Virus record (IMG/VR): IMGVR_UViG_2703718849_000002
Coordinates: 1-32,276 of that record
DNA: 32,276 nucleotides
Reading direction: 5' to 3' (one strand)
DNA from: a virus
Lineage: Duplodnaviria; Heunggongvirae; Uroviricota; Caudoviricetes
A model generated the notes under the pieces. That model was not told the origin of the DNA. It searched no databases and saw only the letters and a program-made list of their open reading frames with translations. Of the stretch, positions 1-4,594 are shown piece by piece. Both the position numbers and the translations under genes were made by a program. Numbering within the stretch: the first letter of the stretch is position 1; every line of letters starts with the position of its first letter.

Positions 1-151
1 TCTCCTGTCAGTTAGCTTTGGTTGTGTGTGGGAGTCGTAGTCCTGAACGAAAACACCCCGCAATGGCACATTGGCAGCTAATCCGGATTCGCACTTCCTG
101 CCAATGCTTCGTTTCGTATCACACACACCAAAGCCTTCTGCTTTGAATGCT

Positions 152-182
152 GCCCTTCTTCAGGGCTTAATTTTTAAGAGCA
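152..182 (-). promoter_or_regulatory. nutL: nutL N-utilisation site: boxB hairpin (152-166, minus strand reads GCCCTGAAGAAGGGC) and boxA-like element (174-182)
   Basis: Minus strand of 1-200 matches the remembered lambda nutL/N-leader; SD ACAGGAGA lies at the very window edge, so the N start codon is just outside. Confidence 0.7.
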
Positions 183-222
183 TCACCTTCATGGTGGTTA
201 GTGCGTCCTGCTGATGGCTTAA

Positions 223-263
223 AATATACCTATAGGTAAAACTGCTGTCTATACCTGCAGGTA
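223..263 (-). promoter_or_regulatory. pL promoter with OL operators (palindromes TACCTATAGGTA 227-238 and TACCTGCAGGTA 252-263; candidate -10 TATATT at 223-228 and -35 TAGACA at 246-251 on minus strand)
   Basis: Repeated 12-bp palindromes of the form TACCTnnAGGTA, the same motif repeated at OR; promoter hexamers with 17-bp spacing overlapping the first operator. Confidence 0.55.
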
Positions 264-325
264 AATAAAATTGATGTGAGAGTTTACCTGCTTGAATTTT
301 CAGGTAATTAATTTTTTGGATTGAT

Positions 326-349
326 ATAAAAAAGCCCGCTTTGCGGGCT
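326..349 (-). terminator. Rho-independent terminator ending the cI operon (lambda t-imm analogue)
   Basis: GC stem AGCCCGC/GCGGGCT followed on the minus strand by a U-run, immediately after the stop of the 361-675 ORF. Confidence 0.7.
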
Positions 350-360
350 GAAAGGAGATG

Positions 361-675
361 TCAGAAGCTATTTGGATTGCTTGGCCATTGCGGCAATTTT
401 GATTCTACTGGGGTGTGTTTGGGTTTGAGTCCGTTTAAGTAGTCGAGGCGCTCAATGGCGCATTTATACATAGCAATCTGCTCTGATGACATGTCGTCGT
501 ATGACATGCCTTTGAACTTTTTAATTATCGATTCTGCCTCATGTATAAGGTGCTTCTTCCTCATGAGTTCAGCTGTATGCTTAGAGCTTACAGGAGATAA
601 CTTTGCCCATATGAAGCAGATGATTACAACAGCGACTACTATGCCGGGTATAAACATTTGCTGCTTTATCCTCAA
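361..675 (-). CDS. Hypothetical small membrane protein (one N-terminal transmembrane helix) co-transcribed with cI; sits where lambda has rexAB
   Basis: 104-aa ORF whose start overlaps the cI stop by 4 nt; hydrophobic stretch IPGIVVAVVIICFIWA; no family recognised. Confidence 0.6.
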   Translation of the reverse strand: MRIKQQMFIPGIVVAVVIICFIWAKLSPVSSKHTAELMRKKHLIHEAESIIKKFKGMSYDDMSSEQIAMYKCAIERLDYLNGLKPKHTPVESKLPQWPSNPNSF

Positions 676-1358
676 ACTTTTGGCAGATCGTCCTGGTCTA
701 CGTACCTGGTGTGTTTCACAATAGCTGAAACAAAATGCATTTTATCAACTTCTTCAACAGGAAGAGTGATTGGGCGGTGATCACTGTTTATGCTACTAAA
801 CTGATAATCACCGTCTCTTGTTTTGTTCATGATCTTTATCATGTTGTGACCGTCTTTGGTCCTTACAAAGACTTCATCACCTGGATGTACTGGCGTATTT
901 GGTTCAATAACAACATATTCTCCTGACTGAATCCTTGGCCACATGCTGTCACCCTTAACCTTCAGACCGTAAGCATCTTTATCGCCGCTGTAGATGCTTA
1001 ACCAACCGGATCTGAATTCAATCATATCCACTGAGCCATCAACTCCCAAAACGGCTTCACCAATTACCGGAACAAAACCCGCACGAACGTTACCCGCAAA
1101 CTCAAGATGGTCTGTAGCTCCAGCTTTACCATCTACAAGCATGTCCATCCATCCGCGTGGGAGATTAAAAGATTTTTCAATTAGTTCCATCATATCGTCA
1201 GCAATGCGTTTTTTTCCGCTTTTTCCTTCCGGATACAGCATTCTGGAAACGTATGATGGTTCCCTTTCTATTCGACGAGCCAACTCTGAGGCCTTTCCAT
1301 TACAGAATCGGTCTCTTATCTCTATCAGCCTTAGTCGTCTTTGTTCGTATTTATCCAT
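672..1358 (-). CDS. cI: cI-like prophage repressor (N-terminal HTH, C-terminal LexA/S24 self-cleaving peptidase domain)
   Basis: 228 aa; GDSM serine motif and downstream lysine typical of the LexA/cI S24 family; divergent from cro across an operator region. Confidence 0.85.
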   Translation of the reverse strand: MDKYEQRRLRLIEIRDRFCNGKASELARRIEREPSYVSRMLYPEGKSGKKRIADDMMELIEKSFNLPRGWMDMLVDGKAGATDHLEFAGNVRAGFVPVIGEAVLGVDGSVDMIEFRSGWLSIYSGDKDAYGLKVKGDSMWPRIQSGEYVVIEPNTPVHPGDEVFVRTKDGHNMIKIMNKTRDGDYQFSSINSDHRPITLPVEEVDKMHFVSAIVKHTRYVDQDDLPKV

Positions 1359-1378
1359 GATTTAATTCTATCTTTGAT

Positions 1379-1434
1379 TACCTGCCGGTAAATAACCTAT
1401 GGGTATTGATTTGCTTTTTACCTACAGGTAAACT
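1379..1434 (+). promoter_or_regulatory. OR operator region with three TACCTnnAGGTA-type sites (1379-1390, 1394-1405, 1419-1430) and PR (-35 TTGATT 1406-1411, -10 TAAACT 1429-1434)
   Basis: Three spaced palindromes between divergent cI and cro; promoter hexamers with 17-bp spacer overlapping the cro-proximal operator. Confidence 0.65.
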
Positions 1435-1813: not shown

Positions 1814-2095
1814 ATGGGTACTATTGCAACTAAAAGCAAGAAAGCGGCTCGCATCGAGTCAGCCTTGCTGAACAAACTGGCACTGATGGGGCAGAAGACA
1901 TTCGCTCGCGCGATGGGGGTTCCGGAATACCAGGTAAGCCGATGGAAGAATGGTTTCTTCTCGCAGGTAAGCATGATGCTGGCTGTTCTGGAATACGGAA
2001 TCGAAGACGATGAAATGGCTGAATTGACTAAGCGGCTTGCCGATTACCTGACAAAAGAAAAAGCCCCGAAGAACGGCGAATTCTTCGAGGCCTGA
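1814..2095 (+). CDS. cII: cII-like transcriptional activator of lysogeny
   Basis: 93 aa; ALRIESALLNK, QISRWK and SMLLAVLEWG-type motifs closely resemble lambda CII as remembered. Confidence 0.85.
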   Translation: MGTIATKSKKAARIESALLNKLALMGQKTFARAMGVPEYQVSRWKNGFFSQVSMMLAVLEYGIEDDEMAELTKRLADYLTKEKAPKNGEFFEA

Positions 2096-2129: not shown

Positions 2130-2291
2130 ATGACAAAACGTAGTAAGAAATACCAGGAAAAAGAAGAGATTCGACCCCCTGATTCACCTGAGGGATTAGT
2201 GGTAGCCGCAGCAAATAACAGGGCGTTCGCAGAGCGCCTTGTTGGTGTTTACAGACTAGCCAAAGCAGGAGTGAAACATGGGCGTCGTTAA
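2130..2291 (+). CDS. Possible small basic protein (53 aa) between cII and the O gene
   Basis: ATG with SD (CAGGAGTAATT); overlaps the upstream candidate O start by 14 nt; not in the supplied track (under 60 aa). Confidence 0.3.
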   Translation: MTKRSKKYQEKEEIRPPDSPEGLVVAAANNRAFAERLVGVYRLAKAGVKHGRR

Positions 2292-3168
2292 GTTAGCTGA
2301 TTACAGGCATAACCCTGTACAACATCAGGAGGCATCCAGTATGGGGTATGTCTCTATACACCGCCAGTTTATGGACAGCAGGCTCTATAAGGACTCTCAG
2401 GCAGTACATCTTTGGCTTCACTTAATCCTCAAGGCTAATCACGAATCTACTGTCGTCAATACGGATATCGGTCCGATAACTGTTGATCGCGGTCAGATGA
2501 TAACTGGACGCCCGTCGCTGGTCAGAGAAACATTCATCCCCGACAACAAAGTTCGGAGCTTATTACGGACTTTTGAGTCGAAAGGGATGCTTAATATTTG
2601 CTCGATGGGGAAGAAATTTAGCCTGTTTACAATCGTTAAATATGACGATTTTCAGGCAAAAAATTGTCCAACGGTTGTCCAACGGTTGTCCAACGCAAAC
2701 ACCAGTAATGGCGCGGCTCTCAGCGGAGATTGTCCAACGGTTGTCCAACGGTTGTCCATAAACAATAATATAAATAATATCTCTAATACTGACGTATTAG
2801 AGAGTGCCACAGCAGACAAAAAGTCTGACAAGAAAAAACCTTCCGTTAGCTGTCAGGATGTTGTCGATGCTTACCACGAAATCCTTCCTGAAGCGCCAAG
2901 AATCCGCGCACTGAATGACAAGCGTAAAAACCAGATCCGAACGTTCTGGCGCAAAGCCGGAGTGATAACCCGACAGCTTGACGGGCATGGTTTTACGATG
3001 CAGGACTGGAGAAATTATTTGAGCTACGTAGGCGAAAATTGCCGATGGATGTTCGAAGAGCGTCCAAACCATCAACGCGGAACTGTCTGGCACAAAAAGG
3101 GATTTGATTTCCTGCTTAACGATAATACCTACCTGAAAGTTCGTGAGGGTGAACACGATGACCGATAA
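2278..3168 (+). CDS. O: Replication initiator protein (lambda O / P22 gene 18 analogue) containing the origin iterons; alternative start at 2341 has a perfect AGGAGG SD
   Basis: Position after cII; tandem iterons inside the coding sequence produce the CPTVVQRLSN protein repeats; followed by the helicase gene. Confidence 0.8.
   Translation: MGVVKLADYRHNPVQHQEASSMGYVSIHRQFMDSRLYKDSQAVHLWLHLILKANHESTVVNTDIGPITVDRGQMITGRPSLVRETFIPDNKVRSLLRTFESKGMLNICSMGKKFSLFTIVKYDDFQAKNCPTVVQRLSNANTSNGAALSGDCPTVVQRLSINNNINNISNTDVLESATADKKSDKKKPSVSCQDVVDAYHEILPEAPRIRALNDKRKNQIRTFWRKAGVITRQLDGHGFTMQDWRNYLSYVGENCRWMFEERPNHQRGTVWHKKGFDFLLNDNTYLKVREGEHDDR
2664..2759. repeat. Replication origin: two clusters of 11-bp direct repeats TTGTCCAACGG (3 copies at 2664-2695, 2-3 copies at 2730-2759) followed by an AT-rich stretch (2760-2800)
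   Basis: Read directly; same architecture as lambda ori (iterons inside O followed by an AT-rich unwinding element). Confidence 0.8.
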
Positions 3169-4594
3169 TTTTTATGCGCCGCCCCATAGCATCGAGGCAG
3201 AGCAGGCGGTGATTGGTGGATTGCTTCTGGATGATGACAGCAGTGAGCGCGTCCAGAAAGTTCTGGCGATGCTGAAGCCCGATTCATTTTACAGCCGACC
3301 ACACAAAATCCTTTTCGAAGAGATAACCAGAATGCACCGGGAGCAAAAGCCAGTAGATGGCCTGACGCTTTTCGATGAACTGGAGCGTAAATCGTTAACG
3401 GCGTCTGTTGGCGGTTTTGCTTATATCGCTGAGATCGCAAAGAACACGCCAAGCGCCGCAAACATCGTTGCCTATGCAATGCAGGTTCGCGAAACCGCAA
3501 TGGAACGCTACGCCATCAACCGCATGACTGAAGCGACGGAATTGCTCTATTCCCGCAACGGAATGACTGCAACGCAGAAGTACGAAGCTATTCAGGCGAT
3601 TTTCACGCAACTGACAGACCATGCAAAAACCGGATCGCGTCGCGGCCTTCGCTCATTTGGCGAGGTCATGGAAGACTGGGTTAGCGACCTTGAGAAGCGA
3701 TTTGACCCGTCAGGCGAACAGCGAGGAATGAGCACAGGCATCCCATCGCTGGACAGGATGCTGTCACCGAAAGGTCTGGTGAAAGGCTCTCTGTTTGTCA
3801 TTGGCGCTCGCCCTAAGATGGGGAAAACGACGCTATACAGCCAGATGGCAATCAACTGCGCAGTGCATGAGAAAAAGCCCGCTCTGATGTTCAGCCTTGA
3901 AATGCCAGGTGACCAGATACTGGAAAAACTGGTAGGGCAGAAGTCAGGTGTTAACCCGAATATTTTTTACCTTCCGGCGACAAATGACTCTGATGACGGC
4001 TATCAGGGTGATTACGATGGTGACTTCAACAGGGCGATCGAAACAGCCAATCGCTTGAGTGAAATCGACATGCTTTACATCGACGACACGCCGGGATTAT
4101 CTCTGGCTCAAATCGTCAGCGAAAGCCGTCGAATCAAGCGAGAAAAAGGATGTGTTGGCATGATTCTGGTCGATTACCTGACACTAATGACCGCTGAAAA
4201 GGCCGATCGCAACGACCTTGCTTACGGCATGATCACCAAAGGACTGAAGAACCTTGCCAAAGAGCTTGATTGCGTTGTTGTGCTTCTGACACAGCTTAAC
4301 CGCGCACTGGAAAGCCGAACCAATAAACGCCCATTACCAAGTGACTCACGAGATACAGGGCAGATTGAACAGGATTGCGATTATTGGGTGGGGATCCATC
4401 GTGAAGGTGCTTTTGATGACAGCGTTCCTCCTGGTGAAACCGAACTAATCCTTCGCCTCAATCGTCATGGCAATACCGGAACGGTGTATTGCATTCAGGC
4501 AAATGGCGCTATTTATGACACAGACCAACAGTCTGCTGAAATGCGCCGCCGTGAACGTGAGGAACCGCAGTCCAAGAAGAAAGGAGGATTCTGA
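3158..4594 (+). CDS. DnaB-family replicative helicase (P22 gene 12 type)
   Basis: Walker A GARPKMGKTT and DnaB-like N-terminal and RecA-like motifs; start taken at ATG 3158 (SD GAGGG), overlapping the O stop. Confidence 0.9.
   Translation: MTDNFYAPPHSIEAEQAVIGGLLLDDDSSERVQKVLAMLKPDSFYSRPHKILFEEITRMHREQKPVDGLTLFDELERKSLTASVGGFAYIAEIAKNTPSAANIVAYAMQVRETAMERYAINRMTEATELLYSRNGMTATQKYEAIQAIFTQLTDHAKTGSRRGLRSFGEVMEDWVSDLEKRFDPSGEQRGMSTGIPSLDRMLSPKGLVKGSLFVIGARPKMGKTTLYSQMAINCAVHEKKPALMFSLEMPGDQILEKLVGQKSGVNPNIFYLPATNDSDDGYQGDYDGDFNRAIETANRLSEIDMLYIDDTPGLSLAQIVSESRRIKREKGCVGMILVDYLTLMTAEKADRNDLAYGMITKGLKNLAKELDCVVVLLTQLNRALESRTNKRPLPSDSRDTGQIEQDCDYWVGIHREGAFDDSVPPGETELILRLNRHGNTGTVYCIQANGAIYDTDQQSAEMRRREREEPQSKKKGGF

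What the first reader, a model, noticed from the sequence alone, without database searches (positions are those of the whole stretch)
361..675. Uncharacterised membrane protein in the rexAB position, translationally coupled to the cI repressor
The 104-aa ORF starts on the cI stop codon (4-nt overlap) and is followed on the same strand by a hairpin plus U-run terminator (326-349), so it is the last gene of the lysogenic immunity transcript. In lambda this slot holds rexA/rexB, and in other lambdoid phages it commonly holds exclusion or abortive-infection genes expressed in the lysogen. The protein has one N-terminal TM helix followed by a charged helical domain, and I recognise no family for it. 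It is a candidate for a new single-protein superinfection exclusion or membrane-acting abortive-infection function.
Basis: partly seen in the sequence, partly recalled or inferred. Interest (0 to 1): 0.65.

Follow-up and report, generated by a model that had tools for sequence, protein, structure and literature searches.

The report
Unknown membrane protein gene after cI
The small gene behind the phage repressor cI is real and encodes a membrane-anchored protein of unknown function; its relatives always sit in slots where prophages keep genes that shut out other phages, so that role is likely here but untested.

Summary
An ORF on the minus strand (361..675) follows cI (672..1358) and ends 11 nt before a hairpin-plus-U6 terminator (349..333). 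All of this lies between the OL and OR operators. The true start is almost certainly the ATG at 657 (98 aa), 14 nt after the cI stop and behind a GAGGA. The overlapping TTG is not the start.

The gene is coding. It has homologues at 29-48% identity with invariant H27, K34, E40-A41, M56, C66-A67, L71 and W91-P92, and close alleles show a synonymous excess only in this frame. It belongs to PHROG 10450 (unknown function) and has no Pfam, NCBIfam, PADLOC, PDB or fold match. RefSeq mostly leaves it unannotated.

Every member has one N-terminal TM helix with no K/R before it and 1-6 after it, which predicts a cytoplasmic helical-hairpin domain.

The family occupies two prophage slots. Subfamily A follows cI in phages with different tail types. 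Subfamily B converges on ejection gene 16 of P22-like phages, where P22 keeps sieA. It is not homologous to SieA, RexB, BstA or HK97 gp15.

Best reading: a new family of lysogen-expressed, inner-membrane-tethered phage-exclusion proteins. The function is inferred, not shown. Interest is moderate.

The parts
361..657 (-). 98-aa protein-coding gene (ATG 657-655, stop 363-361), PHROG 10450 subfamily A. TM helix about residues 2-20, then a helical hairpin (helix to about 47, helix 58-76) and a W91-P92 tail.
658..675 (-). 18 nt between the mechanical TTG start (675) and the ATG. Holds the cI stop TGA (674-672) and a GAGGA Shine-Dalgarno (673-669) 11 nt before the ATG. Probably untranslated in this frame.
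672..1358 (-). cI-type repressor with an S24 autopeptidase domain, of mEp043 immunity type. Upstream gene of the same transcript.
325..349 (-). Intrinsic terminator: 7-bp GC-rich stem, 3-nt loop, U6. It ends the cI-ORF transcript, like lambda tIMM.
223..264 (-). OL operators (226-239, 251-264) overlapping a pL-like promoter (TAGACA-17-TATATT, 251..223).
   Evidence: pL annotated in the mEp043 record
1365..1431 (-). OR operators (1378-1391, 1418-1431) and a pRM-like promoter (TTTACC-16-TAGAAT, 1392..1365). Its -10 ends 7 nt before the cI ATG, which implies a leaderless cI mRNA.
1826..1839 (-). TTGCN6TTGC box (CII binding, pRE) at the 5' end of cII on the opposite strand. A second likely source of cI-ORF transcripts when lysogeny is being established.
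   Evidence: annotated in the mEp043 record

Best explanation
This is a genuine 98-aa gene and the last cistron of the cI immunity transcript. That transcript would start at pRM in the lysogen and at pRE during establishment, and it ends at its own terminator.

The product is a bitopic inner-membrane protein. A poorly conserved N-terminal helix anchors it, with the N-terminus outside. A conserved domain of about 75 residues (a helical hairpin plus a Trp-Pro tail) sits on the cytoplasmic face.

It belongs to a small enterobacterial phage family, PHROG 10450. The family moves as a cargo gene between two slots known for lysogen-expressed genes: after cI, and next to ejection gene 16 where P22 has sieA.

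The most likely function is protection of the lysogen against incoming phages. The cytoplasmic domain would bind, at the inner face of the membrane, either the DNA-delivery conduit of the infecting phage (ejection proteins or tape measure) or a host inner-membrane protein that phages need for DNA entry. That would block genome entry. This is the same kind of job as P22 SieA, HK97 gp15 or DicB, done by an unrelated protein.

Shown here: the gene is real, where it starts, its transcript context, its family and its two slots.
Inferred from sequence rules: membrane topology.
Inferred from position and analogy only: expression in lysogens and the exclusion function.
For: Gene reality:
- Homologues at 29-48% identity share invariant I3, H27, K34, I38, E40, A41, M56, C66, A67, L71, W91, P92.
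- Close alleles show a synonymous excess in this frame only.
- The exact protein is seen on 481 public contigs and further alleles on hundreds more, in E. coli and Shigella. It is present in 52 of 5426 complete E. coli genomes.

Transcript context:
- The cassette reads OL / terminator / ORF / cI / OR, with no terminator-like site between cI and the ORF.
- The same order, cI then the gene within 3-14 nt, is kept in three lineages whose cI proteins are 84-87% identical and in L048.

Cargo-like behaviour:
- The imm-mEp043 module carrying it occurs in a lambda-like siphovirus (mEp043), in this P22-like podovirus window and in a prophage with lambda-type early genes (L003).

Second slot:
- More than 30 subfamily B loci lie about 20 nt from the stop of gene 16, convergent with it. 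They are on the mnt strand, in N7 and L041 as the last gene of the run that starts with mnt.
- P22 sieA has exactly this position.
- No RYPxEA SieA motif was found in any locus examined.
- In relatives that lack the family, the slot holds other envelope cargo: lipoproteins, secreted proteins and proteins with about 2-4 hydrophobic segments.

Fast evolution:
- dN is 0.5-0.6, against 0.1 for the adjacent cI and cro.

Topology and domain:
- All 15 members have 0 K/R before the TM helix and 1-6 in the next 15 residues.
- Apart from M1 and I3, all invariant or nearly invariant residues lie outside the TM helix.
- The AlphaFold model built with the alignment has pLDDT 81, with helices 5-47 and 58-76.

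Literature:
- The cI-N interval is a hotspot that holds rexAB and bstA (PMC8585504).
[quoted passage not shown] Its escape mutations lie in the C-terminal regions of gp16 and gp20, and its conserved motif is predicted to be cytoplasmic (PMC10883804).
- HK97 gp15 is a small inner-membrane exclusion protein (PMC3594210).
Against: - There is no phenotype, expression or localisation data for any family member.
- Position-based inference is weak. These slots also carry cargo with other roles.
- Subfamily A travels with the immunity module in phages with different virion types, so a target specific to P22-type ejection proteins is not implied for the window gene.
- One phage carries both subfamilies (contig 2563366933_000009; L006 and L066). 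This fits different specificities but equally fits a non-defence role.
- Topology rests on the positive-inside rule alone.
- dS is saturated, so the rate comparison with cI could reflect cassette replacement rather than faster divergence.
Confidence: 0.4

Rival explanations
1. Abortive-infection effector, Rex-like in outcome. The membrane-tethered protein senses a product of the infecting phage and then collapses membrane function or otherwise stops growth, so the infected lysogen dies without releasing phage.
For: - It has the same slot and co-transcription with cI as lambda rexAB and BTP1 bstA (PMC8585504).
- It is membrane anchored.
- It evolves faster than its neighbours.
Against: - It is a single small protein with one TM helix, and no partner gene lies between cI and the terminator.
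- Apart from M1 and I3, no invariant or nearly invariant residue lies in the TM helix. A pore or channel former would be expected to conserve its membrane segment.
- Its relatives sit in the sieA slot, which is associated with entry exclusion rather than abortive infection.
- There is no PADLOC hit.
Confidence: 0.17
2. A lysogeny or host-physiology factor rather than a defence gene. The cytoplasmic domain would modulate a host inner-membrane protein for the prophage's own benefit. Candidates are FtsH/HflKC (which would affect CII/CIII-type decisions or induction), a transporter, or a stress or division component.
For: - It would be made together with cI from pRE and pRM, exactly when the lysis-lysogeny decision is taken.
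- It is tightly linked to one cI/cro type in subfamily A.
- Subfamily B lies on the mnt strand, in N7 and L041 as the last gene of the run that starts with mnt, another lysogeny-maintenance repressor.
- Its predicted position at the cytoplasmic face would put it next to FtsH, which is my own inference.
Against: - Phages that carry it also have a normal cIII.
- The gene is absent from most lambdoid phages, including P22, which has an empty cI-OL interval. It is therefore dispensable for the lysogeny circuit.
- It diverges much faster than cI and cro, which is unusual for a core regulator.
- It hops between two unrelated slots.
Confidence: 0.18
3. Not a functional gene: a chance ORF or decaying remnant in the spacer between cI and OL.
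For: - RefSeq PGAP leaves it unannotated in 29 of the 30 complete E. coli genomes listed.
- It has no domain hits.
Against: - The family is conserved across 29-48% identity with invariant motifs and intact frames.
- All 32 close copies compared are intact in this ORF.
- The synonymous excess is specific to this frame.
- Strong TAAGGAGG sites precede the subfamily B starts.
- The terminator lies after the ORF, not after cI.
Confidence: 0.02

Closest known systems
P22 SieA (superinfection exclusion A, types A-C; PHROG 7745)
   Same: - A prophage cargo gene encoding an inner-membrane protein.
- Subfamily B of the present family sits in the identical position, convergent with ejection gene 16 and between genes 16 and 9.
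- SieA's most conserved motif is predicted to be cytoplasmic, as is the conserved domain here (PMC10883804).
   Different: - No sequence relationship: hhalign probability 0.3%.
- SieA is 164 aa or longer with several TM helices and the motif FxRYPxEAxxFNK. This protein is 98 aa with one TM helix and no such motif.
- The window copy lies after cI, not next to gene 16.
Lambda RexA/RexB
   Same: It occupies the same slot between cI and OL, would be co-transcribed with cI, and is ended by a terminator just before OL.
   Different: - Rex is a two-protein system: the sensor RexA and the multi-pass channel-like RexB (as described in PMC8585504).
- Here there is one small single-pass protein with no similarity to either: no Pfam, PADLOC or PHROG match.
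HK97 gp15 (YebO-like exclusion cargo gene)
   Same: A small protein expressed from the prophage that inserts into the inner membrane, carried as a mobile cargo gene. Its proposed action is blocking DNA entry of incoming phages (PMC3594210).
   Different: - gp15 is related to the bacterial YebO family and sits in the tail operon.
- The present protein has no significant Pfam match, YebO included. All its relatives found are in phage or prophage contexts.
BstA (BTP1 and relatives)
   Same: It is encoded directly downstream of the prophage repressor and presumably shares the repressor's promoter (PMC8585504).
   Different: BstA acts at sites of phage DNA replication and comes with an aba self-immunity DNA element (PMC8585504). 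The present protein is membrane anchored, and the PADLOC scan found no defence-protein family.
PHROG 10450
   Same: Full-length match: E=1e-54, profile positions 1-98 of 98. Phage N7 ORF14 (subfamily B) matches the same PHROG with E=3e-52.
   Different: Nothing differs. However, the PHROG has no function or name, so membership says nothing about mechanism.

Membership tests
PHROG 10450 (unknown function) | Full-length profile match | tested here: met
   E=9.8e-55, residues 7-104 of the 104-aa form onto profile positions 1-98 of 98.
P22 SieA family | Sequence or profile homology to SieA | tested here: not met
   hhalign of the family alignment against P22 SieA gives probability 0.3%. The PHROG scan of the window protein matched 10450 and did not list the SieA PHROG 7745.
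P22 SieA family | Multi-pass inner-membrane protein of about 160-200 aa with the motif FxRYPxEAxxFNK (PMC10883804) | tested here: not met
   98 aa, one hydrophobic segment, next-best segment KD about 0. The motif is absent from the family alignment, and a six-frame RYPxEA search of the loci held at that point hit only P22.
P22 SieA family | Gene located between homologues of genes 16 and 9 | tested here: not met
   The window gene lies after cI. The window's 16-9 interval holds only an Mnt-like ORF. Subfamily B relatives do meet this feature.
P22 SieA family | Blocks DNA injection by P22-like phages | not testable with these tools
   Needs plating and DNA-entry assays.
Lambda RexAB | Position between cI and OL, co-transcribed with cI, followed by a terminator | tested here: met
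Lambda RexAB | Two genes: a sensor (RexA) and a multi-pass membrane protein (RexB), with sequence similarity to them | tested here: not met
   A single 98-aa ORF lies between cI and the terminator. It has no Pfam, PADLOC or NCBIfam match.
HK97 gp15 / YebO | Sequence relationship to the YebO family | tested here: not met
   The Pfam scan of the window protein at E<=1 found no family. Scans of all 15 family members listed no YebO match.
BstA | Match to the BstA defence-protein family | tested here: not met
   No family was found in the PADLOC scan even at E<=10. I did not check whether a BstA model is in that library. Only the position downstream of the repressor is shared.
Lysogen-expressed prophage cargo gene (general kind) | Sits in a repressor-independent or repressor-linked transcription unit of a prophage, with patchy distribution among related phages | tested here: met
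   It is present with imm-mEp043 in phages with different virion modules. P22 has an empty cI-OL interval. Relatives lie in a second slot.
Lysogen-expressed prophage cargo gene (general kind) | Actually expressed in the lysogen | not testable with these tools
   No RNA-seq or proteomics data are available here. Expression is inferred from the position behind cI.

The most novel reading that the evidence does not exclude
PHROG 10450 would be a new class of single-protein phage-exclusion factor with an unusual geometry. An N-out/C-in tether presents a small helical domain at the cytoplasmic mouth of the DNA-entry route. The domain plugs or mis-assembles the ejection-protein or tape-measure conduit, or blocks the host inner-membrane protein it uses, from the inside. 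The same module is redeployed in two prophage slots with diverged specificities. That would explain why one phage carries both paralogues, and why subfamily B was always found next to one gp16 C-terminal type, although some gp16 relatives of that type lack it.
Probability: 0.3. Interest if true: 0.6.

Novelty: new member of a known kind. Interest (0 to 1): 0.42.

Why it matters
The cI-N interval and the gene 16-gene 9 interval are the two classic places where lambdoid and P22-like prophages keep genes that protect the lysogen. A 98-aa protein family that moves between both, is unrelated to SieA, Rex, BstA or gp15, and is carried by about 1% of complete E. coli genomes is a cheap, well-defined candidate for a new exclusion mechanism.

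It would also add a third example, after SieA and HK97 gp15, for studying how DNA-delivery conduits cross the inner membrane.

There is a practical point too. RefSeq annotation skips the gene in most of the genomes listed here, so surveys of prophage cargo based on those annotations will miss it.

Tried and rejected
- Pfam, NCBIfam and PADLOC scans of the protein found nothing meaningful. A Pfam scan of all 15 family members also found nothing meaningful.
- A profile search against PDB sequences found only designed helical proteins, at E>0.7.
- The afdb50 library was not available.
- The word-indexed protein search with the single sequence found only near-identical copies. The exhaustive HMMER search was what revealed the family. 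Two 1300-aa hits there (P0008, P0010), with several matched stretches, were set aside as probably compositional; I did not examine them.
- I tested whether the 97-aa ORF in the window's own sieA slot (25488..25781) is a paralogue. It is an Mnt/Arc-type ribbon-helix-helix protein.
- I tested whether N7 ORF15, next to the subfamily B gene, is a SieA. There is no similarity and no motif.
- The genome-contig scan with the subfamily A alignment gave only one Escherichia locus, so the hosts of the 43%-identical relatives remain unknown.
- Literature searches for mEp043, phage N7 and cI-downstream genes found no functional work on this gene.
- Rfam found no RNA family anywhere in the window.
- I rejected the TTG-overlap start, and with it the N-in topology its Arg/Lys extension would imply.

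Full report
**What is in the sequence**

On the minus strand an ORF runs from a TTG at 675 to a stop at 361-363. It overlaps by 4 nt the end of a 228-aa ORF at 672..1358. That ORF is a cI-type repressor: Peptidase_S24 E=1.4e-17 and PHROG 4 'transcriptional repressor'.

Eleven nucleotides after the stop lies a 7-bp GC-rich hairpin followed by U6 (349..333). Folded as RNA it gives -12.6 kcal/mol, z = -3.3 against shuffles. No terminator-like site separates cI from the ORF. The single promoter-like match inside cI is within chance expectation.

The palindrome TTACCN4GGTAA occurs only four times in 32 kb: at 226-264 and 1378-1431, against 0.49 expected. The cI-ORF-terminator unit is therefore bracketed by OL and OR.

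- Left of OL are a pL-like promoter, a lambda/434-type nutL boxB and the N ribosome-binding site, 97.8% identical to phage 434.
- Right of OR come cro, cII (Phage_CII E=4e-30), an O-like initiator and a DnaB-type helicase.
- A pRM-like promoter ends 7 nt before the cI ATG.
- A TTGCN6TTGC box sits on the minus strand inside the start of cII, the canonical pRE position (also annotated in the mEp043 record).

This is the rexAB slot, and the ORF is the last gene of the immunity transcript.

**Where the gene starts**

The TTG that overlaps the cI stop is what a mechanical ORF finder reports. The evidence favours the ATG at 657-655, which gives 98 aa.

- PHROG 10450 is 98 positions long and aligns from residue 7 of the 104-aa form.
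- The original mEp043 annotation uses the ATG.
- Every homologue starts M/V-[YFW]-I-[PS].
- 9 of the 32 close copies counted have GTG instead of ATG at exactly this codon, which keeps start capacity.
- In relative L033 the TTG is out of frame.
- Subfamily B genes have TAAGGAGG 5-6 nt before the equivalent GTG/ATG.

In the window a GAGGA (673-669) overlaps the cI stop and lies 11 nt before the ATG. Comparison with L033 and L035 shows that the window's cI lost its last three codons to a new TGA. This is how the apparent overlap arose. Coupling to cI translation is plausible because the gap is only 14 nt, but it does not work through an overlapping start.

**Is it a real gene?**

Yes.

- The word-indexed search found only near-identical copies. 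An exhaustive HMMER scan found relatives at 33-43% identity, and a profile search added more.
- The 15-sequence alignment has invariant I3, H27, K34, I38, E40, A41, M56, C66, A67, L71, W91 and P92.
- Among 32 close copies, substitutions in the ORF frame are 10 synonymous to 9 non-synonymous, against 1:17 and 4:14 in the other two frames. All 32 copies are intact in this ORF.
- The exact 98-aa protein occurs on 481 public contigs, and sister alleles on hundreds more, in E. coli and Shigella. All are labelled 'hypothetical protein'.
- It is in 52 of 5426 complete E. coli genomes. RefSeq annotates only the S24 peptidase in 29 of the 30 rows listed.

**What the protein looks like**

- All members have one hydrophobic segment starting at residue 1-3. 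There is no Lys or Arg before it and 1-6 in the next 15 residues.
- By the positive-inside rule the N-terminus is outside and the remaining 75 or so residues are cytoplasmic. This is an inference.
- AlphaFold with the family alignment gives pLDDT 81 and pTM 0.60. A long helix (5-47) continues out of the membrane, followed by a loop, a second helix (58-76) and a tail that carries W91-P92.
- Apart from M1 and I3, every invariant or nearly invariant residue lies outside the TM helix. The helix looks like an anchor and the soluble domain like the working part.

**The family lives in two slots**

*Subfamily A.* This includes the window, phage mEp043, the E. coli and Shigella prophages, and metagenomic relatives L033, L035 and L048. 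It always follows an S24 repressor of the same type, within 3-14 nt, with divergent cro.

- The carrying phages differ in other respects. mEp043 is a lambda-like siphovirus with a tape measure and a J-like fibre.
- The window is a P22-like podovirus with gp7/gp20/gp16, a tailspike, gtrABC and int.
- L003 has lambda-type early genes: bet, gam, O, P and ren.
- The gene therefore travels with the immunity module, not with a virion type.

*Subfamily B.* This is 29-35% identical to the window protein. It is found in phages N7 and HZ41 and in more than 30 prophage or viral contigs of E. coli, E. fergusonii and Salmonella.

- It lies about 20 nt from the stop of ejection gene 16 and is convergent with it. 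It is on the mnt strand, in N7 and L041 as the last gene of the run that starts with mnt.
- P22 sieA occupies exactly that place.
- No locus examined contains the SieA motif.
- In gp16 relatives that lack the family, the same slot holds lipoproteins, secreted proteins or proteins with about 2-4 hydrophobic segments.
- One 38-kb viral contig carries both subfamilies (L006 and L066).

**Rate of change**

Between the three subfamily A lineages, cI is 84-87% identical and Cro 88-92%, but this protein only 42-48%. dN is 0.5-0.6 against about 0.1. dS is saturated, so cassette replacement cannot be separated from faster divergence. Either way, the gene changes much faster than the regulatory genes beside it.

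**Most likely function**

The gene sits behind the repressor, whose promoter is among the most highly transcribed in a lysogen (PMC8585504). Its relatives sit in the other classic slot for lysogen-expressed genes. Both slots are documented homes of phage-exclusion genes:

- rexAB and bstA after cI (PMC8585504);
- sieA between genes 16 and 9, where it blocks injection from the inner membrane, with escape mutations in the C-terminal regions of gp16 and gp20 (PMC10883804).

Small inner-membrane exclusion proteins such as HK97 gp15 are a known kind (PMC3594210).

I therefore rank first a lysogen-expressed, membrane-tethered exclusion factor. Its cytoplasmic domain would interfere with genome entry, either at the phage's own conduit or at a host inner-membrane protein used for entry. 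My confidence in that mechanism is 0.4.

- An abortive-infection role is less likely (0.17). The TM helix carries almost none of the conserved residues, and there is no partner gene.
- A role in lysogeny control or host physiology remains open (0.18).
- A non-functional ORF is effectively excluded (0.02).

None of these can be settled without experiments.

**Comparison with known systems**

It is a member of PHROG 10450, which has no function or name. It is not a member of the SieA, RexAB, BstA or gp15/YebO families, because defining features were tested and not met. It shares with them position, membrane location or proposed job, not ancestry.

**Verdict**

The start codon needs correcting. 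The gene is already deposited as a hypothetical protein but is uncharacterised and often unannotated.

In novelty it is a new member of a known kind: a prophage cargo gene that is a candidate superinfection-exclusion gene, from a new protein family. Interest is moderate (0.42). It is not surprising to a specialist, but it is a clean and cheap target that could yield a new exclusion mechanism.

Noticed in passing
window 1-229: The left end is a lambda/434-type pL leader: the N ribosome-binding site, and nutL boxB at 152-166, 97.8% identical to phage 434. The mEp043 match starts only at 119. A mosaic joint therefore lies inside the pL leader and joins a lambda-type N module to the mEp043 immunity module.
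   Followed up: partly
window 669-677 (minus strand): The window's cI ends three codons earlier than its 84-85% identical relatives in L033 and L035: a TGA in GTT-TGA-GGA-TAA, against VEED*/VDGI*. The old stop TAA is still visible 6 nt downstream. This change created the apparent TTG/TGA overlap.
   Followed up: yes
window 1358-1392 (minus strand): The pRM-like promoter TTTACC-16-TAGAAT has a -10 element that ends 7 nt before the cI ATG. This suggests a leaderless cI mRNA, as in lambda.
   Followed up: no
window 2652-2769: Two clusters of three 11-nt iterons (TTGTCCAACGG), 44 nt apart, lie inside the O-like replication gene (2278..3168). They are probably the replication origin. They also produce the repeated CPTVVQRLS peptide in the protein.
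   Followed up: partly
window 2061-2093 (minus strand): A 14-bp hairpin plus T-run lies on the minus strand at the end of cII. This is the position of the oop RNA terminator in lambda and P22.
   Followed up: no
window 25488-25781 (minus strand): The gene 16-tailspike interval, which is the sieA/immI slot, holds only a 97-aa Mnt/Arc-type ribbon-helix-helix ORF in this phage. No sieA, arc or ant homologue was seen in the ORFs listed around it, and no subfamily B paralogue is there.
   Followed up: partly
E. coli RefSeq genomes (H26-H55), e.g. L004 3696-4372: PGAP annotates only the S24 peptidase over this region in 29 of the 30 complete genomes listed. In the one exception (L003) it calls a 67-aa fragment from an internal ATG. 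A conserved 98-aa gene is thus mostly missing from these RefSeq annotations.
   Followed up: partly
L094-L111, about 3750-4500 (strand opposite to gene 16): In P22-like contigs whose gp16 resembles the type linked to subfamily B but which lack the family, the slot convergent with gene 16 carries other small envelope proteins. These include lipoproteins with a lipobox, secreted proteins, and proteins with about 2-4 hydrophobic segments. The slot appears to be a hotspot for envelope-directed cargo genes.
   Followed up: partly
L046 4920-5000 (phage N7, upstream of ORF14): A perfect 10-bp inverted repeat (CTGCATGATT ... AATCATGCAG) lies in the 80-nt gap just before the subfamily B gene. It could be an operator or an RNA hairpin.
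   Followed up: no
IMG/VR contig 2563366933_000009 (L006 and L066): A single 38-kb P22-like genome carries both the cI-linked subfamily A gene and the gene-16-linked subfamily B gene.
   Followed up: partly
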